A stretch of 64,000 nucleotides of DNA, taken from Escherichia coli (GTDB lineage Bacteria; Pseudomonadota; Gammaproteobacteria; Enterobacterales; Enterobacteriaceae). Positions 2,349 through 39,311 of the stretch are shown here, in pieces; the first letter of the stretch is position 1; each line of letters starts with the position of its first letter. The DNA lies in NCBI RefSeq assembly GCF_024223415.1, contig NZ_CP100500.1; one strand, written 5' to 3'. The notes below the pieces were generated by a model. The model was not told the origin of the DNA and searched no databases. It worked only from the letters and a program-made list of their open reading frames with translations. The position numbers were made by a program, and so were the translations under genes.

Positions 2349-3454
2349 GCCAGATCCTCATTGTTAAATGTCGGGTCGTTCGCCTGCGGAGCGTCGATCA
2401 CTTCGGCAACCAGTGTATCGTTGGCGACTGGCGCAGGCGGAATGACAATCGATTCCGGCGTCACCACTGGCACCAGATGGCGGGTAAGCGGCGCTTTTTC
2501 AGTTAATAGCTTGCCAACCGTTGCCAGGAAATAACGACCGCATAAACGCCCAAGTTTATAGTCTTCGCGCAGCGCCGGAATCCGACTGCCAAGCGCGATA
2601 CTATGTAATGGCTTCGGCGGATAAATTTCGAATATCCGCAGCTTGCCCGGTGGTTTCTCAATAAATTGCTGAATGTCACGATAGCTGGTTTCATGATGCT
2701 GCACCAGATTGACCAGCGGCTGCAGGCTACTGTCACCCAGCCAGCGTTCCATGCGTTTGAACCACTGCGGCGTGTAGTACATTTGTGACGGCACAGTGCG
2801 GATGACGACCAACGTTTTAGCGCCCTGCCTTGCCGCCTCTTTAACCGGAATCGCATCACTGATCCCGCCATCCAGGTAGTTAATGCCTTCCAGCGACACT
2901 CCGCTACGATAAAAGCCAGGTATCGCACTGGAGGCGCGAATCACATCCAGCCAGTTTTGTTTGGTTGGTAAAAAGTAATTCGGCGCGTAGTCATCCTGAC
3001 GACAGGCGCACATATAAAACGATTTGCCGCTGTCAAACAACCGCGCGGCGGTATCCATTTGCAACGGCATCTGGCTTGCGGTGGCCTCCACCAGCCAGTC
3101 GAGATCGATAAGATTTCCTCCACGGACAAAGCGCAATGGATCGAAAAATTCGCGTTTTGTGGTATAGCGCATGATGACTTTGCGCGCGTAACCGGGCTGA
3201 TTGCAGATAAACGCCGAGAGGTTCTGCGCCCCGGCAGATGTGCCGAGATAAAGATCGAAAGGATTAAACTGCGCGCGCATAAACTCATCCAGCACGCCAG
3301 CCGTGAAAATTCCACGCTGCCCGCCGCCTTCGCACACCAGAGCTATTCGTCCAGGCTGGAACGGCCTTAGCGACAACGGCGCAATATTACCAAGCGTTAC
3401 AGGTATTCGCTGCCCCACTTCTGCCTTCCTGTTTTTGTTGTGAAAGAAAGACAA
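2345..3454 (-). CDS. yjjU: Patatin-like phospholipase
   Basis: ORF with GXSXG lipase motif (GTSAG); its 3' end overlaps the yjjV start; true start may be a few codons downstream. Confidence 0.85.
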   Translation of the reverse strand: MSFFHNKNRKAEVGQRIPVTLGNIAPLSLRPFQPGRIALVCEGGGQRGIFTAGVLDEFMRAQFNPFDLYLGTSAGAQNLSAFICNQPGYARKVIMRYTTKREFFDPLRFVRGGNLIDLDWLVEATASQMPLQMDTAARLFDSGKSFYMCACRQDDYAPNYFLPTKQNWLDVIRASSAIPGFYRSGVSLEGINYLDGGISDAIPVKEAARQGAKTLVVIRTVPSQMYYTPQWFKRMERWLGDSSLQPLVNLVQHHETSYRDIQQFIEKPPGKLRIFEIYPPKPLHSIALGSRIPALREDYKLGRLCGRYFLATVGKLLTEKAPLTRHLVPVVTPESIVIPPAPVANDTLVAEVIDAPQANDPTFNNEDLA

Positions 3455-28678: not shown

Positions 28679-28981
28679 TTATTTTTTGTTCTGATCGCGC
28701 AGCATCGCTTCACGTAAAATTGCGTTCAGGCGAGTTTGATAGCCTTTACCAGGTCGCTTCAGCCATTCCATCACATCAGCATCAATACGCACCGAAGCCT
28801 GGGTTTTCAATGGCCGATAAAACTTACCGCGTTCTGCGTTAGACCATTGCTCATCGCTGGAAGGCGGGATATCACTGTAATCAATATCTTCGTCGAATTT
28901 ATTCGCCAGTGCCTTCAGTTCGGCCTCATGCTGCACATCGAGTGTAGAGGGTGTCCCTCGTTTATGTTTAACCATGCTCAT
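28679..28981 (-). CDS. brnA: BrnA-like antitoxin (DUF4415/COG3514)
   Basis: C-terminal VRIDADVMEWLKRPGKGYQTRLNAILREAM is the hallmark BrnA motif; start at internal ATG (MSMVKHKRG) overlapping the brnT 3' end by 14 nt. Confidence 0.7.
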   Translation of the reverse strand: MSMVKHKRGTPSTLDVQHEAELKALANKFDEDIDYSDIPPSSDEQWSNAERGKFYRPLKTQASVRIDADVMEWLKRPGKGYQTRLNAILREAMLRDQNKK

Positions 28982-29255
28982 AGCGACTCCTCTCTTTACG
29001 ATCTGCTTTTCGTGCACTGATGATTCGAATAATTTCATTTCCGCTTTCGAAACGGATGGTATGCGCAACCAGAATAACCACGATACCGTGAACCAGGCCG
29101 ATAGTCTGCCAGCGATACTCACCGTTTTCTATGCGATCTTGCTGTGACAAATGTTGTGGATCATCAAACACTAACACCGCATCTTCAAAGCGGATGCCAT
29201 GTTTCACCCGATTACTTTTGGCCTTGTTTGCATCCCATTCAAACTCCATTGGCAT
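28968..29255 (-). CDS. brnT: BrnT-like toxin (DUF497/COG2929, RelE-fold ribonuclease)
   Basis: N-terminus ...MEFEWDANKAKSNRVKHGIRFEDAVLVFDD is the typical BrnT signature; toxin gene lies upstream of the antitoxin as in brnTA operons; start ambiguous among three nearby ATG (29249/29255/29264). Confidence 0.7.
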   Translation of the reverse strand: MPMEFEWDANKAKSNRVKHGIRFEDAVLVFDDPQHLSQQDRIENGEYRWQTIGLVHGIVVILVAHTIRFESGNEIIRIISARKADRKERSRYEHG

Positions 29256-29451
29256 AGTTGCCATCCCTAATTGTATATACAAAAATGTATCTACAATTAT
29301 TCTGCAATTATAGCGTTGATGTTGGAAATAGCATCACGTTTTGGATAATCAACCATGAAATTGACAATGAGTAAGTTGGACTTGATTCATCCAATAGAAT
29401 TTCTCGCCTGACATGGCACACTAAACACCTCGCTGTCGTTAAGGGATTACC

Positions 29452-30618
29452 GTGAAAAACTATAAAGTTATTACCCCGCTTTTTCCTACCTATGCACAGG
29501 TTAAAGCTATGATGAAAGCCGTCTCAGGCTATTCCCTGAAAGCGGTACGCAATATGATTACCGCCATTCGCGATCAAACCGGTACGCCGCAAAAACCCGT
29601 TGACTGGTCGGAACCTGACCTGTGGATCAGCGAACGCTTAACGGGCGAAGATGCCGACATCGCCCGTCGTATTTGGGATACAGATAATCACATATTGAAC
29701 CCGCGCCACAGCTACGGCTGCTACTTATTCCTCAACTATCCCCAGTTTGAGCTGATGGAAAGCACGCCAGATGATACCTGGCAGCCCACCTCGCGCGGGC
29801 AAAAATTCCTGCAAGATGACGAAAAAACGCTGCGTTCACTGGATGACCAGGAAGGCATTCTGCAACTGCTTGAGCTGCTGGCTGGCCGGGAAATGTCGCG
29901 CCGCGCCGATTTATTGCCGGAATGGCAGGCCTTTTTGCATCAGCATTCGAAATTCGCGTCTGCAAGTTCAGTGAAAAGCACGCTCTACTCCCGTCTCTAT
30001 AACCTTATTGACCGTGGCATGGTTACTCGCGAAGGTATGAGCTATTGCATCACCGATACCGGACGCGCCTGGCTTGGAAAAGCGTTGCCAGCACGAAAAA
30101 GCGATCCGCGTAAAGAGCTGTTGGAAGCGGTGAAACGCTACAACGAGCAGCAAAAAGAGCTGCTGCGCGAACAAATCAGCACGATGAACCCGTACAAATT
30201 TGAACAACTGGTCGGTCAATTACTGGAAGCAATGGGCTACGAGCAGGTCGAAGTGACCAAAGCCTCAGGCGATAAAGGTGTGGACGTGATTGGTCAGGTG
30301 CAGGTCGGCATCACCACTATTACCGAAGTGGTGCAGGTCAAAAGAATGCAGAACACCATCACTCGACCGTATATCGACCAGTTGCGCGGAGCGTTGCCTT
30401 ACCACAAAGCCATTCGCGGTACGCTCATCACCACCGGGAAATTTGCGGCGAAATGTGCAGAAGCGGCGCTCTTTCCGGGGGCAGCGCCCATTACGCTTAT
30501 CGACGGCGATCGCTTACTGGAACTGTTAATCGAAAATAACGTCGGCATTCGCCGCAGCAATGCAGTGGAATTGCTGGATGTAGATTTGCAGTTGTTTGAT
30601 GAGCTGGAGATGGATTAA
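29452..30618 (+). CDS. Mrr-family (type IV-like) restriction endonuclease with extended N-terminal region
   Basis: C-terminal Mrr_cat-like core (GDKGVDVIG...TEVVQVKR, D...QxK variant); GTG start preceded by aaggga; ends 63 bp before hsdM on the same strand. Confidence 0.75.
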   Translation: MKNYKVITPLFPTYAQVKAMMKAVSGYSLKAVRNMITAIRDQTGTPQKPVDWSEPDLWISERLTGEDADIARRIWDTDNHILNPRHSYGCYLFLNYPQFELMESTPDDTWQPTSRGQKFLQDDEKTLRSLDDQEGILQLLELLAGREMSRRADLLPEWQAFLHQHSKFASASSVKSTLYSRLYNLIDRGMVTREGMSYCITDTGRAWLGKALPARKSDPRKELLEAVKRYNEQQKELLREQISTMNPYKFEQLVGQLLEAMGYEQVEVTKASGDKGVDVIGQVQVGITTITEVVQVKRMQNTITRPYIDQLRGALPYHKAIRGTLITTGKFAAKCAEAALFPGAAPITLIDGDRLLELLIENNVGIRRSNAVELLDVDLQLFDELEMD

Positions 30619-30681
30619 AGGGCGAAATCTGCCGTCTCTACCATTACAATAGCGACCCAATTTATCTGAACAGAGTTCATC

Positions 30682-32301
30682 ATGGCCAAAGCACCAACTA
30701 AAAAAGCCAAAGCAAAGAAAGGCTTTGAAGAAACATTATGGGATACTGCAAACCAACTTCGCGGTAGCGTTGAGTCCTCCGAATACAAGCACGTGGTGTT
30801 AAGCCTCGTGTTCCTGAAATTCATCAGCGATAAGTTTGAAGCACGCCGCAAAAAAATGATTGCCGATGGGCAAGCTGACTTCCTTGAGATGGAAGTGTTC
30901 TACCAGCAGGACAACATTTTCTACCTGCCGGAAGAGGCGCGCTGGTCATTTATCAAACAAAATGCCAAACAGGACGATATTGCGGTTCGTATTGACACCG
31001 CCCTCTCGACCATTGAGAAACGTAACCCAACCCTGAAAGGCGCGCTGCCAGACAACTACTTCAGCCGTCAGAATCTGGAAACCAAAAAACTGGCGTCACT
31101 GATTGATACCATCGACAACGTCGAAACGCTGGCACACGAAACTGACGTTGAAACGTTGTCGAAAGAAGACCTGGTCGGACGCGTTTACGAATACTTCCTC
31201 GGTAAGTTTGCCGCAACCGAAGGCAAAGGCGGTGGTGAGTTCTACACGCCCAAATGTGTGGTTACGCTGTTAACTGAAATGCTCGAACCTTTCCAGGGCA
31301 AAATCTATGACCCATGCTGCGGCTCGGCGGGGATGTTCGTGCAGTCGGTGAAGTTTGTCGAGAGCCATCAGGGTAAAAGTCGTGATATCGCGCTGTATGG
31401 TCAGGAACTGACAGCCACGACGTATAAACTGGCAAAAATGAACCTCGCCATTCGCGGCCTTTCAGCAAACCTCGGCGAACGCCCGGCAGACACTTTCTTT
31501 AGCGACCAGCACCCGGACCTGAAAGCCGACTACATTCTGGCGAACCCGCCGTTCAACCTGAAAGACTGGCGTAATGAAGCCGAATTAACCAAAGATCCAC
31601 GTTTTGCTGGTTATCGTATGCCGCCAACCGGTAACGCCAACTACGGCTGGATTTTGCATATGCTCTCCAAGCTGTCGGCTAACGGCACAGCAGGTTTTGT
31701 GCTGGCAAACGGTTCGATGAGTTCTAACACCAGCGGTGAAGGCGAGATCCGTGCGCAGATGATCGAAAATGATCTGATCGACTGCATGATCGCCCTACCT
31801 GGTCAGTTGTTTTACACCACGCAGATCCCGGTGTGTTTATGGTTTATGACCAAATCGAAGGCTGCCGACCCGGCCAAAGGTTATCGTGATCGTCAGGGCG
31901 AGACGCTGTTTATTGATGCGCGTAACCTCGGCACCATGATTAGCCGCACAACTAAAGAGTTAACGGCGGAAGATATTGCCACCATCGCCGATACCTACCA
32001 TGCATGGCGCAGTACGCCGGAAGAACTGGCTGCACGGATTGCGCGTGGTGACAGCAAGCTGGAAAAATATGAAGACCAGGCAGGCTTCAGCAAAGTTGCG
32101 ACCCTGCAAGATATTAAAGATAACGACTACGTGCTGACGCCGGGCCGCTATGTGGGTGCAGCCGAGCAGGAAGAGGACGGCGTGGCATTTGAGACAAAAA
32201 TGCGGGAGTTGTCGAAGACGTTGTTTGAGCAGATGAAGCAGGCGGAAGAACTGGATTGTGCGATTCGCCAGAATCTGGAGGCGCTGGGTTATGGGGAGTA
32301 A
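30682..32301 (+). CDS. hsdM: Type I R-M N6-adenine DNA methyltransferase subunit
   Basis: 539-aa ORF with SAM-binding motif I (DPCCGSAGMF) and catalytic NPPF (ILANPPFNL); N-terminus unlike EcoKI HsdM. Confidence 0.9.
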   Translation: MAKAPTKKAKAKKGFEETLWDTANQLRGSVESSEYKHVVLSLVFLKFISDKFEARRKKMIADGQADFLEMEVFYQQDNIFYLPEEARWSFIKQNAKQDDIAVRIDTALSTIEKRNPTLKGALPDNYFSRQNLETKKLASLIDTIDNVETLAHETDVETLSKEDLVGRVYEYFLGKFAATEGKGGGEFYTPKCVVTLLTEMLEPFQGKIYDPCCGSAGMFVQSVKFVESHQGKSRDIALYGQELTATTYKLAKMNLAIRGLSANLGERPADTFFSDQHPDLKADYILANPPFNLKDWRNEAELTKDPRFAGYRMPPTGNANYGWILHMLSKLSANGTAGFVLANGSMSSNTSGEGEIRAQMIENDLIDCMIALPGQLFYTTQIPVCLWFMTKSKAADPAKGYRDRQGETLFIDARNLGTMISRTTKELTAEDIATIADTYHAWRSTPEELAARIARGDSKLEKYEDQAGFSKVATLQDIKDNDYVLTPGRYVGAAEQEEDGVAFETKMRELSKTLFEQMKQAEELDCAIRQNLEALGYGE

Positions 32302-33604
32302 TGCTATTACAACAATAATTGGTGAACACTTGCTGATTAGAAATGGCAAATCTTCGCCATCAAGAGCCATAACAGGAGAATATCCTGTTTATGGTTCAAA
32401 TGGAATAATAGGTTATTCAGATGAATATAACGCTAATGAAAATACAATAATTATCGGGCGTGTTGGGTCATATTGTGGTTCAGTTTATATTTCCGATAAA
32501 AAATGTTGGGTCACTGATAATGCAATAATTGGAACCGCAAAGAATGAAAATGAAAGTCATTTTTGGTTCTATCTTTTAAAAAAAATAGATTTGAACAATT
32601 ATAGTACTGGTTCAGGCCAACCTCTCATTAACCAAACAATAATTAATACAATATCCGTTACCATTCCTAAGCTCAGTGAGAAAAGAGTAGCCATTGGACA
32701 TTTTTTACGCCACTTTGATCAAAAGATAAATTTATCTCTTAATATCAATCAATCCTTGGAACAAATGTCCCAAACCTTGTTCAAATCCTGGTTTGTGGAT
32801 TTCGATCCGGTGATTGATAACGCGCTGGACGCGGGAAACCCAATCCCGGAAGCGATGCAATCTCGCGCAGAACTGCGTCAAAAAGTACGTAATAGTGCAG
32901 ATTTTAAACCGCTTCTAGCGGAAATCCGCTCGCTTTTCCCAAGTGAATTTGAAGAAACCGAACCAGGATGGTTACCTAAGGGCTGGAAACATGGTAATTT
33001 AAATGATGTCACGAAGATCTTAAGTGGGTTTGCTTTTAAGAGTAAAGACTTTGGTGATGAAGGTAAAAGTGTCATAAAAATAAAGAACATTAATATCGAT
33101 AAAACAATTGATATAGATCATACTCAAAAAATTTCTGATATCGTAGCCAAAGACGTAAAGCGTTTTCAATTATTTGATGCCGATATTTTGATGGCTATGA
33201 CTGGTGCCACGGTCGGTAAATTTGGAATATTAGCATCAAAAAATCATGAAGAATATTATCTTAACCAACGAGTTGCGAAGTTTGAAACAGATAAAAAAGC
33301 TTACCTTTATTGTATATTGAATCAAGAAAGTACCGAAAGATTTATAATCAATACAGCTCAGGGCAGTGCACAACCAAATATCAGTGCTAAAGATATTTTA
33401 AGTATTCCACTCACACTACCATCAAACGAAATAATAACTATATTCAATACATTTGTTGATCCTTTATTCTACAGAATGATAGCGAATACAAAAGTTAGTT
33501 TAAGTCTAACAGAACTCCGCGACACCTTGCTCCCAAAACTCATCTCCGGCGAGCTCTCCCTGGAAGATCTTCCGGATCTCAGCACCAATACAGAAGCCGC
33601 ATAA
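32291..33604 (+). CDS. hsdS: Type I R-M specificity subunit
   Basis: Two AT-rich variable target-recognition regions separated by a conserved central region (SLEQMSQTLFKSWFVDFDP) plus conserved C-terminal helix (LTELRDTLLPKLISGEL); ATG at 32291 overlaps the hsdM 3' end. Confidence 0.85.
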   Translation: MGSNAITTIIGEHLLIRNGKSSPSRAITGEYPVYGSNGIIGYSDEYNANENTIIIGRVGSYCGSVYISDKKCWVTDNAIIGTAKNENESHFWFYLLKKIDLNNYSTGSGQPLINQTIINTISVTIPKLSEKRVAIGHFLRHFDQKINLSLNINQSLEQMSQTLFKSWFVDFDPVIDNALDAGNPIPEAMQSRAELRQKVRNSADFKPLLAEIRSLFPSEFEETEPGWLPKGWKHGNLNDVTKILSGFAFKSKDFGDEGKSVIKIKNINIDKTIDIDHTQKISDIVAKDVKRFQLFDADILMAMTGATVGKFGILASKNHEEYYLNQRVAKFETDKKAYLYCILNQESTERFIINTAQGSAQPNISAKDILSIPLTLPSNEIITIFNTFVDPLFYRMIANTKVSLSLTELRDTLLPKLISGELSLEDLPDLSTNTEAA

Positions 33605-33612
33605 CGCATTTT

Positions 33613-33637
33613 GCCCCTGTAAAATCAGGGGCTTTCT
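33613..33637 (+). terminator. Hairpin with T-run between hsdS and hsdR (possible attenuator)
   Basis: gcccctg-taaaat-caggggc followed by tttct, 9 bp after the hsdS stop and about 60 bp before the hsdR ATG. Confidence 0.45.
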
Positions 33638-33698
33638 GGTAAGGTTTTCTACTGATACGGGAATGCTTACCAGAAATTAGCCAGGGTTGGAGCGCGAT

Positions 33699-36600
33699 AT
33701 GAGTCTCTCTTTCAGTGAAGCAAAATTAGAACAAGCGATCATTGAACTGCTGCAGGATCAGGGATATCAACACCTGATCGGCGATAATGTCCCACGTTCA
33801 AGTCTCGATCAGGTCATCATCGAAGACGATCTCCGTCATTATTTAGCGGCACGCTACCAGCCTGATGGCATTACTGAAGAAGAGATTCAACGGCTGATCA
33901 AACAGTTCACCACGCTTCCGGCCTCCGACCTTTATGAAAGCAACAAAACATTTTGTCGCTGGCTGGCAAATGGTTTTCTGTTCAAACGCGACGATCGGCA
34001 ACAAAAAGATCTCTATATTGAATTGCTCGACACCCGGCATCTACCCGCCGCACTGCGCCAGATATTTGACACCGACGATGTCCCGTTGCAACAGGCGGCG
34101 GAACTCCCGCCTTCCTATATTAATCCGCCGCTTAACCGGATTAAGATTGTTAACCAGCTTAAAATCTCCGGTAAAGATAATCAGACTCGTATTCCTGACG
34201 GCATTCTCTATATCAACGGTCTGCCACTGGTCGTCTTTGAATTTAAAAGTGCGGTGCGCGAGCAAGAAGCCAGTATTGGCGATGCCTGGAAGCAGCTCTG
34301 TAAACGCTATCGCCGGGATATTCCGCAACTGTTTATCTACAACGCGCTCTGCGTTATCAGCGATGGCGTAAATAACCGGATGGGCAACCTGTTTGCGCCC
34401 TATGAATACTTTTACTCATGGCGCAAAGTCACCGGTAATGAAAACCGTGAACAGGACGGAATTCCATCATTGCACTCAATGATTCAGGGGCTGTTTCATC
34501 CGGTACGTCTGCTGGACGTGATTAAAAACTTTATCTGCTTCCCGGATAAAGCCAAGCACGAAGTAAAAATTTGCTGCCGATATCCGCAGTACTATGCCGC
34601 CCGCAAACTCTATTACAGCATCAAGCAAGCGCGTAAACCTTTCGGTAGCGGTAAAGGCGGCACCTACTTTGGCGCAACGGGCTGTGGCAAAAGTTACACC
34701 ATGCAATTTTTAACGCGTCTTTTGATGAAGAGCGTGGAGTTTGCCAGCCCGACCATTGTTTTGATCACCGACCGCACCGATCTGGACGATCAGCTTTCTG
34801 CGCAAATGTGCAACGCCAAAAATTACATTGGCGACGACACCATCGTTCCTGTTACCAGCCGTGAAGATTTGCGTAATCAACTGGCGGGACGCAATAGTGG
34901 CGGTGTATTCCTGACAACGATCCATAAATTCACCGAAGACACCGAACTCCTTTCTGAACGCAGCAATATCATTTGCATCTCGGACGAAGCACATCGCAGC
35001 CAGGTTAACCTCGACCAGAAAGTCATCGTCGATAAAGAAAGCGGAAAAGTGCGCAAAACTTATGGCTTTGCGAAATACCTGCACGATTCACTGCCAAACG
35101 CCACCTATGTTGGCTTTACCGGCACACCGATTGACGCGACGCTCGATGTCTTCGGTGAGGTGATCGACAGTTACACCATGACCGAATCCGTTCAGGATGA
35201 AATCACTGTACGCATCGTGTACGAAGGCCGTGCGGCTAAAGTGATCCTGGACTCCAGTAAACTGGAAGAAGTTGAAAAGTATTACGAAGAGTGCGCAAAC
35301 GCAGGCACCAATGAGTGGCAAATCGACGAAAGCAAAAAAGCCACCGCAACCATGAATGCGGTACTGGGTGATGAAGATCGGTTAAAAGCCCTCGCGGAAG
35401 ATTTTGCCAAACATTATGAAAAACGCGTAGACGAAGGTTCCACCGTAAAAGGCAAAGCCATGTTTGTTTGTGCCAGCCGTGAAATTGCCTGGGATTTCTA
35501 CCGTCAGCTTAAAGCTATTCGCCCTGCCTGGTTTGAAGTGAAGCAAGCACCCGATGGCGTCGTCCTGACGGAACAGGAGCAGAAAGAGTTACCGCCTTCA
35601 GAAATGGTGAAGATGGTCATGACGCGCGGTAAAGATGACGACGAGGCGCTTTATGATTTACTGGGCACAAAAGAATATCGTAAAGAGCTGGATAAACAGT
35701 TTAAAAACGCTAAATCGAATTTCAAAATTGCCATTGTTGTTGATATGTGGCTGACCGGTTTCGACGTCCCGGAACTGGATACCATCTATATTGATAAACC
35801 CTTACAAAAACATAATCTTATCCAGACCATTTCTCGCGTTAACCGTAAACTGGAAGGCAAAAGTAAAGGGTTAGTGGTGGACTACATCGGCATTAAAAGT
35901 CAGATGAACCAGGCACTGGCAATGTATTCCCGCATTGATGCCACCAACTTTGAAGATATTCAGCAATCGGTAATAGAAGTTAAAAACCATCTCGATTTGT
36001 TGGGGCAAGTCTTTTACGAATTTGACAGTCGGGATTATTTTAGTGGTGAGCCACAAGCGCAATTATCCTGCCTCAACCGCGCGGCGGAATTTGTTCTGCG
36101 TACCCAGAAAGTTGAACGTCGTTTTATGGGACTGGTTAAACGCATGAAAGCCGCCTACGACGTCTGCTGCGGCAGCGAAGCATTATCACAGACAGAACGT
36201 GACTATATTCACTATTATCTTGCTGTTCGTTCAATTGTTTTCAAACTGACGAAAGGTGACGCACCGGATGTCACCCAGATGAATGCACGCGTTCGTGAAA
36301 TGATTGCAGAAGCGTTAAAAGCTGATGGCGTAGAAGAGATTTATTTTCTTGGCGATAAAAAAGCGGAATCCATCGATATTTTTGACGAAGATTATCTGGC
36401 ACGAATTAACAAGATCAAACTTCCGGCAACGAAGATCCAGTTATTACAAAAATTACTGGAAAAAGCGATCAGCGACTTCAAGAAAGTGAACCAGTTGCAA
36501 GGGATTAACTTCACCCGCCGCTTCCAGGCAATTATAGATCGTTATAATGAGCGGCGAGAAGATGATGTACTCAACGGTGAAGAATTCGATACATTCAGTC

Positions 36601-36962
36601 AGGAAATGACCGATATTATCTATGATATTAAAACCGAAATGGGCACCTGGGCCGATTTAGGCATTGATATTGAAGAAAAAGCGTTTTTCGACATTCTTGC
36701 TCATATGCGCGATAAATATCAGTTCACCTATGACGATGAAAAAATGCTGTCACTGGCAAAAGAGATGAAAAGCGTGGTTGACAACACATCGAAATATCCT
36801 GACTGGAGTAAACGTGATGATATTAAAGCGAAACTGAAAGTTGAACTTATTCTGCTTCTACACAAGCATAAGTTCCCGCCAGTAGCGAATGATGATGTTT
36901 ATATGGGTGTGCTGGCACAGGCAGAGAATTTTAAAGAACACCATATGAGTGCTTTAAATTAA
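33699..36962 (+). CDS. hsdR: Type I R-M restriction subunit (nuclease/helicase)
   Basis: N-terminal PD-(D/E)xK (…LPLVVFEFKS), Walker A (GATGCGKS), DEAH box (ISDEAHRSQ); ATG 33699 preceded by ggag. Confidence 0.9.
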   Translation: MSLSFSEAKLEQAIIELLQDQGYQHLIGDNVPRSSLDQVIIEDDLRHYLAARYQPDGITEEEIQRLIKQFTTLPASDLYESNKTFCRWLANGFLFKRDDRQQKDLYIELLDTRHLPAALRQIFDTDDVPLQQAAELPPSYINPPLNRIKIVNQLKISGKDNQTRIPDGILYINGLPLVVFEFKSAVREQEASIGDAWKQLCKRYRRDIPQLFIYNALCVISDGVNNRMGNLFAPYEYFYSWRKVTGNENREQDGIPSLHSMIQGLFHPVRLLDVIKNFICFPDKAKHEVKICCRYPQYYAARKLYYSIKQARKPFGSGKGGTYFGATGCGKSYTMQFLTRLLMKSVEFASPTIVLITDRTDLDDQLSAQMCNAKNYIGDDTIVPVTSREDLRNQLAGRNSGGVFLTTIHKFTEDTELLSERSNIICISDEAHRSQVNLDQKVIVDKESGKVRKTYGFAKYLHDSLPNATYVGFTGTPIDATLDVFGEVIDSYTMTESVQDEITVRIVYEGRAAKVILDSSKLEEVEKYYEECANAGTNEWQIDESKKATATMNAVLGDEDRLKALAEDFAKHYEKRVDEGSTVKGKAMFVCASREIAWDFYRQLKAIRPAWFEVKQAPDGVVLTEQEQKELPPSEMVKMVMTRGKDDDEALYDLLGTKEYRKELDKQFKNAKSNFKIAIVVDMWLTGFDVPELDTIYIDKPLQKHNLIQTISRVNRKLEGKSKGLVVDYIGIKSQMNQALAMYSRIDATNFEDIQQSVIEVKNHLDLLGQVFYEFDSRDYFSGEPQAQLSCLNRAAEFVLRTQKVERRFMGLVKRMKAAYDVCCGSEALSQTERDYIHYYLAVRSIVFKLTKGDAPDVTQMNARVREMIAEALKADGVEEIYFLGDKKAESIDIFDEDYLARINKIKLPATKIQLLQKLLEKAISDFKKVNQLQGINFTRRFQAIIDRYNERREDDVLNGEEFDTFSQEMTDIIYDIKTEMGTWADLGIDIEEKAFFDILAHMRDKYQFTYDDEKMLSLAKEMKSVVDNTSKYPDWSKRDDIKAKLKVELILLLHKHKFPPVANDDVYMGVLAQAENFKEHHMSALN

Positions 36963-36969
36963 TTATGAA

Positions 36970-37000
36970 GGCCGGATACACTTTGTTATCCGGCCATTCT
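36970..37000 (+). terminator. Hairpin after hsdR
   Basis: ggccggata-cactttgt-tatccggcc followed by attct; weak T-tract. Confidence 0.45.
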
Positions 37001-37082
37001 GAATTAACGTTAATTTCTCTTCCAGATCTTTCCAGTAACGCTTTTATTATTTTCTATTTTTAGCTGGACTATCCCTGTATTT

Positions 37083-37098
37083 ACTGATGATATATCCA
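37083..37098. promoter_or_regulatory. LexA (SOS) box upstream of symE
   Basis: CTGATGATATATCCAG fits CTG-N10-CAG with an AT-rich centre, about 80 bp upstream of the symE ATG. Confidence 0.6.
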
Positions 37099-37104
37099 GG
37101 TATT

Positions 37105-37183
37105 TAGCGCGGTGCGGATGTGCGCCAACACACCCGCACCGCTCATCACAATCACTATTTTCAAGGAATAGCAGTTATGACTG
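37105..37183 (-). ncRNA. symR: SymR antisense sRNA (approximate coordinates)
   Basis: Placed by analogy with the K-12 symE/SymR type I TA arrangement, where a ~77-nt antisense RNA overlaps the symE RBS and start codon; boundaries not determined from sequence. Confidence 0.35.
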
Positions 37184-37515
37184 ACACGCATTCTATTGCA
37201 CAACCGTTCGAAGCAGAAGTCTCCCCGGCAAATAACCGCCAATTAACCGTGAGTTATGCGAGTCGCTACCCGGATTACAGCCGTATTCCCGCCATCACTC
37301 TGAAAGGTCAGTGGCTGGAAGCCGCCGGTTTTGCTACCGGCACGGCGGTAGATGTCAAAGTGATGGACGGCTGTATTGTCCTCACCGCCCAACCACCCGC
37401 CGCCGAAGAGAGCGAACTGATGCAGTCGCTACGCCAGGTGTGCAAACTGTCGGCACGTAAACAAAAGCAGGTGCAGGAGTTTATTGGGGTGATTAGTAGC
37501 AAAACGCCACGCTAA
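37177..37515 (+). CDS. symE: SOS-induced toxin SymE (AbrB-fold)
   Basis: [55 protein letters not shown]...; start at internal ATG 37177 with RBS aagga. Confidence 0.85.
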
Positions 37516-37557
37516 GTTTCTCTCCCCTTCCCCATACGTGAAGGGGAATTGCCCCCA

Positions 37558-37722
37558 TCACTCCACATCCTCCTTGCGTAACCCAATATCCCTCAACCGT
37601 TCATCACTCATTTGCTGTAACACTCGTCGGGTCTGCATTTGTCGCCGCCAACGCCTCACCGCCTGCCAGAGTTGCACAAGTCTGATAAACGGCGTTTTGG
37701 CTTTGTTTTCGTGAAATTCCAT
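37558..37722 (-). CDS. yjiS: DUF1127 small protein YjiS (54 aa)
   Basis: Hand translation of the minus strand: MEFHENKAKTPFIRLVQLWQAVRRWRRQMQTRRVLQQMSDERLRDIGLRKEDVE with RBS gaggagg; below the 60-aa cutoff so absent from the ORF track. Confidence 0.8.
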   Translation of the reverse strand: MEFHENKAKTPFIRLVQLWQAVRRWRRQMQTRRVLQQMSDERLRDIGLRKEDVE

Positions 37723-37898
37723 CTGCTGCCTCCTCATCTTTCAGAGGCTTCATCATCCGCCTTCTGGCAGTTCACAATACAGATGCAAATATTAGTTTTA
37801 TTTAACATACAGACAGGTTAAAACAGCATCTGCATCCGGTTTTTTAGCCTCATCTGTACCGGTTTTTCTCTCTGTATGGTCTAAATAAGGAATACAGC

Positions 37899-39311
37899 AT
37901 GACGCGTTATCAACATCTGGCAACTCTGCTTGCCGAGCGGATTGAGCAAGGGCTGTATCGTCACGGGGAGAAATTGCCGTCGGTGCGCAGCTTAAGTCAG
38001 GAGCACGGCGTCAGCATCAGCACCGTGCAGCAGGCGTATCAGACGCTGGAGACGATGAAGCTCATCACTCCGCAGCCGCGTTCGGGGTATTTTGTCGCAC
38101 AACGTAAAGCCCAGCCGCCAGTGCCGCCGATGACGCGTCCGGTGCAGCGCCCGGTGGAAATTACCCAGTGGGATCAGGTACTGGATATGCTGGAGGCGCA
38201 TAGCGACAGTTCCATTGTTCCGTTAAGCAAAAGCACGCCGGATGTCGAAACGCCCAGCCTGAAACCACTCTGGCGGGAGCTAAGCCGGGTGGTACAGCAT
38301 AATCTGCAAACCGTTCTCGGTTATGACTTGCTAGCCGGTCAGCGGGTATTGCGCGAGCAGGTTGCCCGCCTGATGCTCGACAGCGGCTCGGTGGTCACCG
38401 CCGATGACATCATTATCACCAGCGGCTGCCATAACTCGATGTCGCTGGCGTTAATGGCGGTGTGTAAACCGGGCGATATTGTCGCGGTCGAATCCCCCTG
38501 TTATTACGGTTCGATGCAGATGCTGCGCGGCATGGGTGTGAAAGTGATTGAAATCCCAACCGATCCAGAAACTGGCATCAGCGTTGAAGCGCTGGAACTG
38601 GCGCTGGAACAGTGGCCGATTAAAGGCATCATTCTGGTGCCAAACTGTAATAATCCGCTGGGATTTATTATGCCGGACGCGCGCAAACGGGCCGTTCTCT
38701 CTCTCGCTCAGCGTCATGATATTGTGATTTTTGAAGATGATGTCTACGGCGAACTGGCAACGGAGTATCCGCGCCCGCGGACCATTCATTCCTGGGATAT
38801 CGACGGGCGAGTGCTGTTGTGCAGCTCGTTCAGTAAAAGTATTGCTCCAGGCCTGCGGGTGGGTTGGGTCGCACCGGGGCGCTATCACGATAAACTGCTG
38901 CATATGAAATACGCCATCAGCAGCTTTAATGTACCGTCCACGCAAATGGCGGCGGCAACGTTTGTGCTGGAAGGTCACTATCATCGCCATATCCGGCGGA
39001 TGCGGCAGATCTATCAGCGCAATTTGGCGCTTTATACCTGCTGGATACGGGAATATTTTCCCTGCGAAATCTGTATTACGCGCCCGAAAGGCGGATTTTT
39101 ACTGTGGATCGAATTGCCTGAACAGGTCGATATGGTCTGCGTCGCGCGGCAGCTATACCGCATGAAAATCCAGGTGGCGGCAGGCTCGATTTTCTCGGCT
39201 TCCGGCAAATACCGTAATTGTCTACGTATCAACTGCGCTTTGCCGCTCAACGAAACCTATCGCGAAGCACTGAAGCAAATTGGCGAGGCCGTGTATCGGG
39301 CAATGGAATAA
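37899..39311 (+). CDS. yjiR: MocR-family regulator (GntR HTH fused to aminotransferase-like domain)
   Basis: 470-aa ORF with N-terminal GntR wHTH (LPSVRSLSQEHGVSISTVQQAY) and PLP-fold domain (SFSKSIAPGLRVG). Confidence 0.85.
   Translation: MTRYQHLATLLAERIEQGLYRHGEKLPSVRSLSQEHGVSISTVQQAYQTLETMKLITPQPRSGYFVAQRKAQPPVPPMTRPVQRPVEITQWDQVLDMLEAHSDSSIVPLSKSTPDVETPSLKPLWRELSRVVQHNLQTVLGYDLLAGQRVLREQVARLMLDSGSVVTADDIIITSGCHNSMSLALMAVCKPGDIVAVESPCYYGSMQMLRGMGVKVIEIPTDPETGISVEALELALEQWPIKGIILVPNCNNPLGFIMPDARKRAVLSLAQRHDIVIFEDDVYGELATEYPRPRTIHSWDIDGRVLLCSSFSKSIAPGLRVGWVAPGRYHDKLLHMKYAISSFNVPSTQMAAATFVLEGHYHRHIRRMRQIYQRNLALYTCWIREYFPCEICITRPKGGFLLWIELPEQVDMVCVARQLYRMKIQVAAGSIFSASGKYRNCLRINCALPLNETYREALKQIGEAVYRAME

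What the first reader, a model, noticed from the sequence alone, without database searches (positions are those of the whole stretch)
33605..33698. Hairpin with T-run between hsdS and hsdR suggests separate control of the restriction subunit
A 7-bp GC-rich stem followed by tttct sits 9 bp after the hsdS stop and about 60 bp before hsdR, followed by a second imperfect inverted repeat (ggtaagg...ccttacc). In type I systems hsdMS and hsdR are often expressed separately to delay restriction after acquisition. Here the M-S-R order puts that control point in this short spacer.
Basis: inference. Interest (0 to 1): 0.4.

Follow-up and report, generated by a model that had tools for sequence, protein, structure and literature searches.

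The report
Conserved two-hairpin spacer before hsdR
The 94-base gap between the specificity gene and the cutting-enzyme gene of this E. coli restriction system holds two RNA hairpins kept almost unchanged across several bacterial genera; the first looks like a weak, leaky transcription stop that probably lowers output of the cutting subunit, an ordinary device whose working here is still unproven.

Summary
A 7-bp, 6-GC hairpin (33613-33632) starts 8 nt after the hsdS stop and is followed by TTTCT. The second repeat is larger than described: a perfect 11-bp inverted repeat (33633-33643 / 33666-33676) whose 5' arm is the T-run itself, extended by a 5-bp inner stem.

The window is the E. coli immigration control region (mrr-like, hsdM, hsdS, hsdR, symE). 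The system is probably type ID.

The spacer is under selection. It is 82-88% identical between genera, whereas synonymous sites in the adjacent hsdR are 54-59% identical. Stems are nearly invariant and loops vary. Xenorhabdus has a canonical hairpin plus T8 run at the same place, and its T-run again pairs with a downstream A-run.

As a terminator, hairpin 1 is borderline (d'Aubenton-Carafa d = +3.8). It also lies close enough to the stop codon for ribosomes to suppress it. No convincing promoter lies in the spacer: the best candidate, CTGTAA-17-TAAGGT, scores like about 550 other sites in the window. Covariation statistics are not significant.

Most likely this is a leaky intercistronic terminator or 3' stabiliser plus a leader hairpin, which sets hsdR expression below hsdMS by read-through. 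An independently regulated promoter is neither shown nor excluded. This is a new member of a known kind, of modest interest.

The parts
30682..32301 (+). hsdM (type I methyltransferase subunit)
   Evidence: Pfam N6_Mtase 1e-105 and HsdM_N; RefSeq annotation of an identical locus
32291..33604 (+). hsdS (specificity subunit). It overlaps hsdM by 11 nt and its stop TAA is at 33602-33604. The 3' end from about 33506 onward is conserved across alleles.
   Evidence: Pfam Methylase_S; start as in RefSeq; matches in other E. coli genomes begin at query base 207
33605..33612 (+). 8-nt linker between the hsdS stop and hairpin 1 (5-9 nt in relatives)
   Evidence: distance relevant to ribosome occlusion (PMC4824070)
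33613..33632 (+). Hairpin 1: 7-bp stem (6 G-C) with a 6-nt loop, terminator-like
   Evidence: Arms are invariant at 13 of 14 positions in 8 genus-level sequences; the only change is G-C to G.U in Pragia. The loop is invariant at 1 of 6 positions
33633..33637 (+). Short T-run TTTCT: the weak U-tract of hairpin 1 and also the start of the 5' arm of hairpin 2
   Evidence: T-score 3.0, d = +3.8. The homologous tract in Xenorhabdus is TTTTCTTTTTTTT
33633..33676 (+). Hairpin 2: 11-bp perfect outer stem (33633-43 / 33666-76), a small internal loop (1-2 unpaired nt per side), a 5-bp inner stem (33646-50 / 33659-63) and an 8-nt loop (33651-58)
   Evidence: -17.7 kcal/mol. 92% of cells are paired across 24 variants, with one-sided U.G/U-A/C-G changes and a variable loop. 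The outer stem is retained in Xenorhabdus through changes on both sides
33617..33645 (+). Weak sigma-70-like candidate promoter: -35 CTGTAA (33617-22), 17-bp spacer, -10 TAAGGT (33640-45). Unproven.
   Evidence: Weight-matrix score 5.8 here and 5.8-7.8 in the other 7 genus-level relatives scored, but about 550 equal or better sites occur on the window's + strand. It is below the threshold of the consensus scan
33689..33701 (+). hsdR Shine-Dalgarno GGAG (33689-92) and start codon ATG (33699-701)
   Evidence: 12 of 13 positions invariant among Enterobacteriaceae
33699..36962 (+). hsdR (1087 aa restriction/translocase subunit)
   Evidence: Pfam HSDR_N, SWI2_SNF2, T1R_D3-like and T1RH-like_C; only a distant match to EcoR124I HsdR

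Best explanation
The hsdS-hsdR spacer encodes a conserved, two-part RNA structure on the + strand.

Hairpin 1 sits 8 nt after the hsdS stop and is followed by UUUCU. It acts as a weak, leaky intrinsic terminator, and as a 3'-end stabiliser for the hsdM-hsdS message.

hsdR has no strong promoter of its own. It is transcribed mainly by polymerases that read through hairpin 1. The leak, modulated by how closely a ribosome follows the polymerase to the hsdS stop codon, sets HsdR synthesis below that of HsdM and HsdS.

In read-through RNA the U-tract is taken up into hairpin 2, a 16-18 bp irregular helix that becomes part of the hsdR leader. Its role is inferred only: leader stability, or a processing site.

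Shown: the structures, their conservation, their strand bias, and the absence of a strong promoter match.

Inferred: termination, read-through, and ratio-setting.
For: - **Anatomy.** Hairpin 1 is the top-ranked terminator-like site in 9 kb, at -13.7 kcal/mol with a positive d'Aubenton-Carafa score of +3.8.
- **Selection.** The spacer is 82-88% identical between E. coli and Citrobacter, Klebsiella, Enterobacter, Pluralibacter and Superficieibacter. Synonymous third positions in the adjacent hsdR are only 54-59% identical. Stems are invariant and loops are variable.
- **Strand.** The only hairpin-1 stem change is G-C to G.U. Hairpin 2 uses U.G pairs that alternate with U-A and C-G. The + strand folds better than the - strand in 20 of 24 variants.
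- **Homologous position in Xenorhabdus.** It carries a hairpin plus a T8 run (d = +15.9). Its T-run again pairs with a downstream A-run in 12 of 13 pairs, 6 of them changed on both sides.
- **Other lineages.** Non-homologous GC hairpins lie directly after the hsdS stop in Vibrio and Aeromonas relatives.
- **Promoter.** No sigma-70 site of at least 9 of 12 matches lies between 33260 and hsdR, and the best weight-matrix candidate is ordinary.
- **Copy number.** The element is single-copy and tied to this hsd family.
- **Ribosome effect.** Terminators 5-9 nt after a stop codon are strongly repressed by the translating ribosome (PMC4824070), which fits a leaky rather than a full stop.
Against: - The U-tract is poor, with three U, then C, then U, and the score is borderline.
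- At 8 nt from the stop the hairpin may hardly terminate at all in coupled transcription-translation. It could then be only a stability or processing element.
- Covariation statistics on 24-32 close relatives are not significant: 1 double change, and 34 of 500 shuffles reach the observed score.
- Hairpin 2 carries uncompensated mismatches at one pair in the Citrobacter-type clade and in Pragia.
- The Xenorhabdus support rests on a low-complexity U-run/A-run pairing and a weak model match (17.8 bits).
- A weak promoter, CTGnnA-17-TAAGGT, is positionally conserved and cannot be excluded. Type I promoters are known to be weak.
- No transcript data were available.
Confidence: 0.45

Rival explanations
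1. Hairpin 1 is a real terminator ending the hsdMS unit, and hsdR is transcribed from its own promoter inside the spacer. The promoter would be -35 CTGTAA in hairpin 1 and -10 TAAGGT in the 5' arm of hairpin 2, with a start near 33652. This would give independent control of the restriction subunit.
For: - The candidate is the best-scoring site upstream of hsdR in all 8 genera (5.8-7.8), with a fixed 17-bp spacer, invariant A2 and T6 of the -10, and an invariant A at the last -35 position.
- Its score is similar to the best candidate upstream of hsdM (7.45).
- EcoKI promoters are weak but functional, and canonical type I systems have separate hsdR promoters.
- Xenorhabdus has a strong terminator followed by about 100 nt of AT-rich DNA with -10-like TATGAT.
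Against: - The candidate matches only 6 of 12 consensus positions. About 550 sites on the window's + strand score as well, roughly one per 116 nt.
- Its conservation is fully explained by the invariant hairpin stems that contain it.
- It does not explain why the 3' arm of hairpin 2 is conserved and complementary. A transcript starting in the hairpin-2 loop could not form hairpin 2.
- The consensus scan finds nothing.
Confidence: 0.22
2. There is little or no termination. The two hairpins are an intercistronic processing and stability element in a single hsdMSR mRNA. Hairpin 2, an irregular helix of about 18 bp, would be cut, for example by RNase III. Hairpin 1 would then protect the 3' end of the hsdMS segment, giving different half-lives for the two parts.
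For: - The hairpin-2 geometry is an 11-bp and a 5-bp stem with a small internal loop, fully paired over 18 bp in variant L021. From my own knowledge it resembles intercistronic RNase III sites such as T7 R1.1.
- Hairpin 1 abuts hairpin 2 with no linker.
- The weak U-tract and the 8-nt distance from the stop argue against efficient termination.
- Vibrio and Aeromonas relatives have a GC hairpin with no usable T-run.
Against: - There is no direct evidence for cleavage.
- The helix is at the short end for RNase III.
- The Xenorhabdus version has a canonical T8 terminator tail.
Confidence: 0.18
3. Translational coupling by RNA structure. The folded spacer brings the hsdS stop next to the hsdR start, or the hsdR Shine-Dalgarno is sequestered by the hsdS sequence CUCCGGC (33544-50). 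HsdR would then be translated only when ribosomes translate or terminate on hsdS.
For: - The minimum-energy fold of the window pairs CAUA/CGC at the stop with GCG/UAUG at the start, with AUG paired at P = 0.93.
- The anti-Shine-Dalgarno helix is 97% paired across 32 sequences, including CC to UU changes that remain G.U pairs.
Against: - AUG pairing is specific to E. coli. It is 0.00-0.40 in 7 of the other 8 relatives folded, and in Pluralibacter it reaches 0.90 only by pairing with a different site far upstream.
- The pairing probability of the Shine-Dalgarno is no higher with native hsdS than with shuffled hsdS (native 0.59-0.82 against shuffled means of 0.69-0.78).
- Synonymous Ser-codon changes break the helix without compensation.
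- There are no both-sided changes.
Confidence: 0.05
4. Chance inverted repeats with no function.
For: Terminator-like patterns are not enriched locally, with 11 found against 10.3 expected. Formal covariation tests are not significant.
Against: - The spacer is far more conserved than synonymous sites.
- Stems and loops differ sharply in conservation.
- The fold has z = -3.0.
- An 11-bp perfect inverted repeat is very unlikely in 94 nt.
Confidence: 0.03

Closest known systems
Intrinsic (Rho-independent) terminators used as leaky intercistronic attenuators within operons
   Same: A GC-rich stem-loop lies directly downstream of a stop codon and is followed by a U-rich tract. It sits between cistrons whose products are needed in different amounts. 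The discriminant score is positive.
   Different: The U-tract is only UUUCU. The hairpin is 8 nt from the stop, where ribosomes are expected to suppress it. The U-tract is also the 5' arm of a second conserved hairpin. Termination was not measured.
EcoKI (type IA) hsd transcription: promoters before hsdR and before hsdM, with an apparent terminator after hsdR
   Same: It is a type I system at the same chromosomal island. A terminator-like structure lies between the restriction gene and the modification genes, and the promoters are weak (PMC12707154).
   Different: The gene order is reversed, M-S-R here against R-M-S. In EcoKI a documented promoter follows the terminator, and here none is evident. 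The protein family differs, and E. coli genomes with other type I families are not matched.
Type IC systems (EcoR124I; the E2348/69 hsdMSR locus)
   Same: M-S-R order with a roughly 100-nt hsdS-hsdR gap from which independent hsdR expression has been inferred (PMC2518929).
   Different: HsdR is only distantly related (E = 1e-24 over the motor domain). There is no spacer homology. The inference for E2348/69 is also untested.
Ribosome-dependent modulation of terminators close to stop codons (lambda tR2 constructs; pyrBI attenuator)
   Same: The stop-to-hairpin distance of 5-9 nt is in the range where termination dropped from about 90% to under 10%.
   Different: Those are engineered or leader-peptide systems. 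Here the upstream ORF is a full-length structural gene, and no alternative antiterminator structure was found.

Membership tests
Intrinsic (Rho-independent) terminator | Stable GC-rich stem-loop, 5-14 bp with a short loop, on the transcribed strand | tested here: met
   7 bp with 6 G-C pairs, a 6-nt loop and -13.7 kcal/mol
Intrinsic (Rho-independent) terminator | U-rich tract of about 7-9 nt immediately 3' of the stem | tested here: inconclusive
   The tail UUUCUGGU has a T-score of 3.0 and d = +3.8, which is borderline. The Xenorhabdus homologue UUUUCUUUUUUUU scores d = +15.9
Intrinsic (Rho-independent) terminator | RNA 3' ends generated at the U-tract | not testable with these tools
   No transcript data; needs Term-seq, 3' RACE or in vitro transcription
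Sigma-70 promoter for hsdR within the spacer | -35 and -10 hexamers with 16-18 bp spacing close to consensus | tested here: inconclusive
   No site reaches 9 of 12 matches. The best, CTGTAA-17-TAAGGT, has 6 of 12 matches and a weight-matrix score of 5.8. It is conserved in position but ordinary in score
Ribosome-mediated transcription attenuator (trp / pyrBI type) | An alternative antiterminator structure competing with the terminator | tested here: not met
   No competing structure appears in the folds of the window and relatives. Hairpin 1 forms in all of them
Ribosome-mediated transcription attenuator (trp / pyrBI type) | A stop codon close enough to the terminator hairpin for the ribosome to occlude it | tested here: met
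   8 nt here and 5-9 nt in relatives.
Conserved structured RNA supported by covariation | Statistically supported compensatory base changes | tested here: inconclusive
   94% of cells are paired, but there is only 1 double change among close relatives and the shuffles are not exceeded. Both-sided changes appear only against Xenorhabdus, in a low-complexity stem
Known Rfam RNA family | A match at or above the family's gathering score | tested here: not met
   Only sub-threshold chance hits: isrK 18.1 against 50 bits and c4-a1b1 16.7 against 46.7 bits
Type ID restriction-modification family (StySBLI / EcoR9I / KpnAI) | Subunit sequence similarity to, and complementation with, founder members | not testable with these tools
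   No reference sequences were available and Titheradge 2001 is not held. Indirect support: the locus is in the immigration control region and is present in 16% of E. coli genomes, against 12% reported for type ID there. A K. pneumoniae relative is 91% identical. The system is not type IC
RNase III processing site | About two turns of dsRNA, often with an internal loop | tested here: inconclusive
   Hairpin 2 has 16-18 pairs with a small internal loop or bulge. Cleavage is not testable here

The most novel reading that the evidence does not exclude
The two abutting hairpins form a family-specific riboregulator. Hairpin 1 would be a ribosome-gated terminator, so polymerase reads into hsdR only when a ribosome is at the hsdS stop codon. 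Hairpin 2 would then capture the U-tract in read-through RNA, creating a conserved leader that marks or protects hsdR mRNA or is bound by a trans-acting factor. Restriction-subunit expression would thus be licensed by ongoing HsdS synthesis at the RNA level. That would be a layer of type I control not described so far.
Probability: 0.12. Interest if true: 0.5.

Novelty: new member of a known kind. Interest (0 to 1): 0.3.

Why it matters
Reviews note that very little is known about transcriptional control of type I restriction systems (PMC12707154). About one in six complete E. coli genomes carries this M-S-R family.

If the spacer does set the HsdR:HsdM/S ratio, it would explain how these systems keep the nuclease subunit limiting without a separate promoter. 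It would also give a small, mutable handle for engineering restriction level or transformability in clinical E. coli and Klebsiella.

If it is only a leaky terminator, that is routine operon architecture. In that case the value here is a corrected description and a clear set of tests.

Tried and rejected
- **Rfam scan of 29000-38500.** Nothing credible at the spacer. It did find SymR next door.
- **Dispersed repeat or mobile element.** The pattern is unique in the window. The covariance model finds no other copy in the window or in unrelated loci. It is absent from plasmids apart from one 834-kb E. coli record in the plasmid collection.
- **Antisense or - strand terminator.** There is no T-run after either hairpin on the - strand (read from the sequence). 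The nearest - strand promoter-like site ends about 170 nt upstream of the spacer. The - strand folds less well.
- **Closing helix between the hsdS stop and the hsdR start, a three-way junction.** It is strong only in E. coli and is not conserved.
- **Long-range anti-Shine-Dalgarno helix with the hsdS coding sequence.** It is 97% paired but has no double changes, and it is no better than shuffled controls.
- **More divergent homologues for covariation.** Relatives at 59-70% protein identity have non-homologous spacers.
- **Mini-ORF ATGCTTACCAGAAATTAG (33663-33680).** It is present only in E. coli-type sequences and is not conserved.
- **Literature on transcription of type ID hsd genes.** Titheradge et al. 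2001 is not held, and four searches found nothing specific.

Full report
**Context.**

The window is E. coli chromosome, 100% identical over the query to eight complete genomes. The region is the immigration control region. In order it holds btsT, yjiX, yjiA, brnT/brnA, an Mrr-family endonuclease gene (29452-30618), hsdM (30682-32301), hsdS (32291-33604), hsdR (33699-36962), symE with its antisense SymR, yjiS and yjiR.

HsdR has the HSDR_N, SWI2/SNF2 and T1RH-like_C architecture. It matches the type IC EcoR124I HsdR only distantly (E about 1e-24). The locus is present in 861 of 5426 complete E. coli genomes, always on chromosomes.

A recent review lists types IA, IB and ID as the type I families at this island, with type ID at 12%. 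By elimination, and from a 91%-identical Klebsiella pneumoniae relative, this is probably a type ID system. I could not test that directly because no reference sequence was available and the founding paper is not held.

**The observation.**

The hairpin is there. It reads GCCCCTG (33613-33619), loop TAAAAT, CAGGGGC (33626-33632), at -13.7 kcal/mol, and is followed by TTTCTGG. It starts 8 nt after the hsdS stop (TAA, 33602-33604) and ends 66 nt before the hsdR ATG at 33699. The Shine-Dalgarno GGAG lies at 33689-33692.

The second repeat was under-described and slightly misquoted. It is a perfect 11-bp inverted repeat, TTTCTGGTAAG (33633-33643) / CTTACCAGAAA (33666-33676). A 5-bp inner stem (UUUCU / GGGAA) and an 8-nt loop extend it, at -17.7 kcal/mol.

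The key anatomical point is that the T-run following hairpin 1 is the 5' arm of hairpin 2, and that the two helices abut with no linker. The 116-nt fold has z = -3.0.

**Is it more than chance?**

Locally, terminator-like patterns are not enriched: 11 were found against 10.3 expected. The pattern alone therefore proves little. Conservation is the real evidence.

A protein-guided scan of one genome per species returned the same M-S-R junction in the following genera:
- E. albertii
- Citrobacter
- Klebsiella (two species)
- Pluralibacter
- Enterobacter
- Superficieibacter
- Pragia
- Xenorhabdus

A DNA-pattern scan of metagenomes added 68 loci.

Between E. coli and the other Enterobacteriaceae genera, the non-coding spacer is 82-88% identical. 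Third positions of identical codons in the adjacent hsdR are only 54-59% identical.

Conservation within the spacer, in eight genus-level sequences:

| Element | Invariant positions |
|---|---|
| Hairpin 1 arms | 13 of 14 |
| Hairpin 1 loop | 1 of 6 |
| Hairpin 2 outer arms | 18 of 22 |
| Hairpin 2 loop | 2 of 8 |

The single hairpin-1 stem change, in Pragia, is G-C to G.U. This pattern is what selection on structure produces.

**Limits of the comparative evidence.**

On 24 distinct variants, 94% of cells form standard pairs. Most pairs never vary, there is only one both-sided change, and 34 of 500 shuffles reach the observed covariation score. The formal test is therefore not significant.

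The metagenome set was ascertained with a pattern that fixes hairpin 1 and part of hairpin 2, so it cannot inform on those columns.

Hairpin 2 has uncompensated mismatches at one pair. G to U occurs on the 5' side in the Citrobacter-type clade, and C to A on the 3' side in Pragia. A few single variants also break pairs.

Supportive details:
- Inner-stem positions alternate between U.G, U-A and C-G.
- One variant (L021) is fully paired over 18 bp.
- The + strand folds better than the - strand in 20 of 24 variants.

The most divergent homologous spacer, from Xenorhabdus, is matched by a covariance model built from the close relatives (17.8 bits, E = 2e-4 in a 211-nt search). It keeps hairpin 1, with the loop-closing G-C replaced by U-A. 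That hairpin is followed by TTTTCTTTTTTTT, and this T-run pairs with a downstream A-run in 12 of 13 positions. Six of those pairs are changed on both sides relative to E. coli. The one mismatch falls at the same pair that is broken in the Citrobacter clade and in Pragia. Because that stem is low-complexity, I treat it as suggestive and not conclusive.

**Terminator quality.**

The classical discriminant gives d = +3.8 for the window (T-score 3.0). It gives +15.9 for Xenorhabdus. The Enterobacteriaceae version is therefore a borderline terminator, and a relative carries a canonical one at the same site.

The hairpin is only 8 nt from the stop codon, and 5-9 nt in relatives. Li et al. measured that lambda tR2 fell from about 90% termination to under 10% when the stop codon lay 5-9 nt upstream. 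That repression was abolished when translation was uncoupled (PMC4824070). Applied here by inference, this predicts substantial read-through whenever hsdS is being translated.

**Promoter.**

The consensus scan finds no + strand site between 33260 and hsdR. A weight-matrix scan puts CTGTAA-17-TAAGGT (33617-33645) on top with a score of 5.8. About 550 sites on the window's + strand do as well.

The same candidate is the best-scoring site upstream of hsdR in all eight genera, at 5.8-7.8. It lies inside the invariant stems, so its conservation carries no independent weight. A transcript starting from it could not form hairpin 2, which would leave the conserved 3' arm unexplained.

For comparison, the best candidate upstream of hsdM scores 7.45 and the best upstream of the mrr-like gene scores 11.1. 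A weak hsdR promoter is therefore neither shown nor excluded.

**Other ideas tested.**

- The window's minimum-energy fold pairs the hsdS stop region with the hsdR start. This is specific to E. coli: AUG pairing probability is 0.93 there, and 0.00-0.40 in seven of the other eight relatives. In Pluralibacter it reaches 0.90 only in the 200-nt context and through a different, far-upstream partner.
- A long-range helix between the hsdS sequence CUCCGGC and the hsdR Shine-Dalgarno is 97% paired. It shows only one-sided changes. Synonymous codon changes break it without compensation. The pairing probability of the Shine-Dalgarno is no higher than with shuffled hsdS. I reject structure-based translational coupling as the main explanation.
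- Rfam has no family for the element.
- It is single-copy and specific to this hsd family.
- Relatives at 59-70% HsdR identity have unrelated spacers. Vibrio and Aeromonas again place a GC hairpin with a poor T-run directly after the hsdS stop.

**Most likely mechanism (confidence about 0.45).**

Hairpin 1 is a leaky intrinsic terminator and 3' stabiliser for hsdMS mRNA. hsdR is expressed mainly by read-through. The degree of leak, influenced by ribosome proximity at the hsdS stop, keeps HsdR below HsdM and HsdS. Hairpin 2 forms only in read-through RNA, absorbs the U-tract, and forms part of the hsdR leader with an unknown stabilising or processing role.

Rivals:
- Processing and stability element without termination: 0.18.
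- Structural translational coupling: 0.05.
- Chance: 0.03.

**Comparison with what is known.**

The idea that hsdR and hsdMS are separate units comes from EcoKI, which has two weak promoters and an apparent terminator after hsdR. It is repeated as the canonical picture.

The delay of restriction after transfer is attributed mainly to ClpXP proteolysis in types IA and IB, and to assembly in type IC. The same review stresses how little is known about type I transcription. I found nothing on transcription of the type ID family.

**Verdict.**

The element is best filed as a new, family-specific example of a known device, an intercistronic hairpin or attenuator. It has one unusual and conserved feature: the second hairpin re-uses the U-tract. 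Interest is modest, at 0.3.

Noticed in passing
window 37106-37182 (-) and symE 37120-37515 (+): A full-length SymR antisense RNA (Rfam RF01809, 91.7 bits, E = 2e-17) overlaps the 5' end of symE directly downstream of hsdR. The type I toxin-antitoxin pair is intact in this allele of the island.
   Followed up: partly
window 36970-36995: A 9-bp GC-rich hairpin, GGCCGGATA...TATCCGGCC, begins 8 nt after the hsdR stop (TAA 36960-62). Its arms resemble REP-element sequence. It is followed by ATTCTGAATT, so the end of hsdR also lacks a classical T-run.
   Followed up: no
window 30619-30681 and 29452-30618: The Mrr-family endonuclease gene lies on the same strand only 63 nt upstream of hsdM, with no terminator-like hairpin between them and only a weak promoter candidate (GCGAAA-17-TACAAT, score 7.45). 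The strongest promoter-like sites lie upstream of the mrr-like gene (TTGCCA-17-AAAAAT, score 11.1). mrr-hsdM-hsdS-hsdR may be one transcription unit.
   Followed up: partly
window 28679-29282 (-): RefSeq annotation of an identical locus places a BrnT/BrnA toxin-antitoxin pair between yjiA and the mrr-like gene.
   Followed up: no
window 33655-33663 and 33688-33692; alignment A2 columns 42-51: The 3' side of the hairpin-2 loop and inner stem carries a nearly invariant TACAGGAA motif (TACGGGAA in this window). A second GGA lies in the hsdR Shine-Dalgarno about 30 nt downstream. From my own knowledge this loosely resembles paired CsrA-type GGA sites. The first GGA is predicted to be base-paired, and the idea was not tested.
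   Followed up: no
L079 (metagenome contig UPSY01042511.1): In this variant the hsdS sequence upstream of about window position 33572 is replaced by unrelated AT-rich sequence, while the last 30 nt or so of hsdS, both hairpins and the hsdR start are intact. It is a truncated or recombined hsdS allele.
   Followed up: no
L087 1459-2301; L088 347-2469; L090 220-2382: More distant relatives carry extra genes at the S/R junction or inside the system. There is an FRG-domain gene between hsdS and hsdR (L087) and several small ORFs with no Pfam hits (L088). L090 has a nucleotidyltransferase-family gene pair, one member of which also carries the HsdS (Methylase_S) domain. These are examples of genes embedded in type I loci.
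   Followed up: no
L009 (Pragia fontium) 2957-3000: The Pragia spacer is 17 nt longer and carries a third small hairpin (GGGGGCGATTAAATCGTGCCC) between hairpin 2 and the hsdR Shine-Dalgarno.
   Followed up: no
window 33663-33680: A five-codon mini-ORF (ATG CTT ACC AGA AAT TAG) lies in the 3' half of hairpin 2. It is present only in E. coli-type sequences, because other genera lack the ATG, so it is probably fortuitous.
   Followed up: yes
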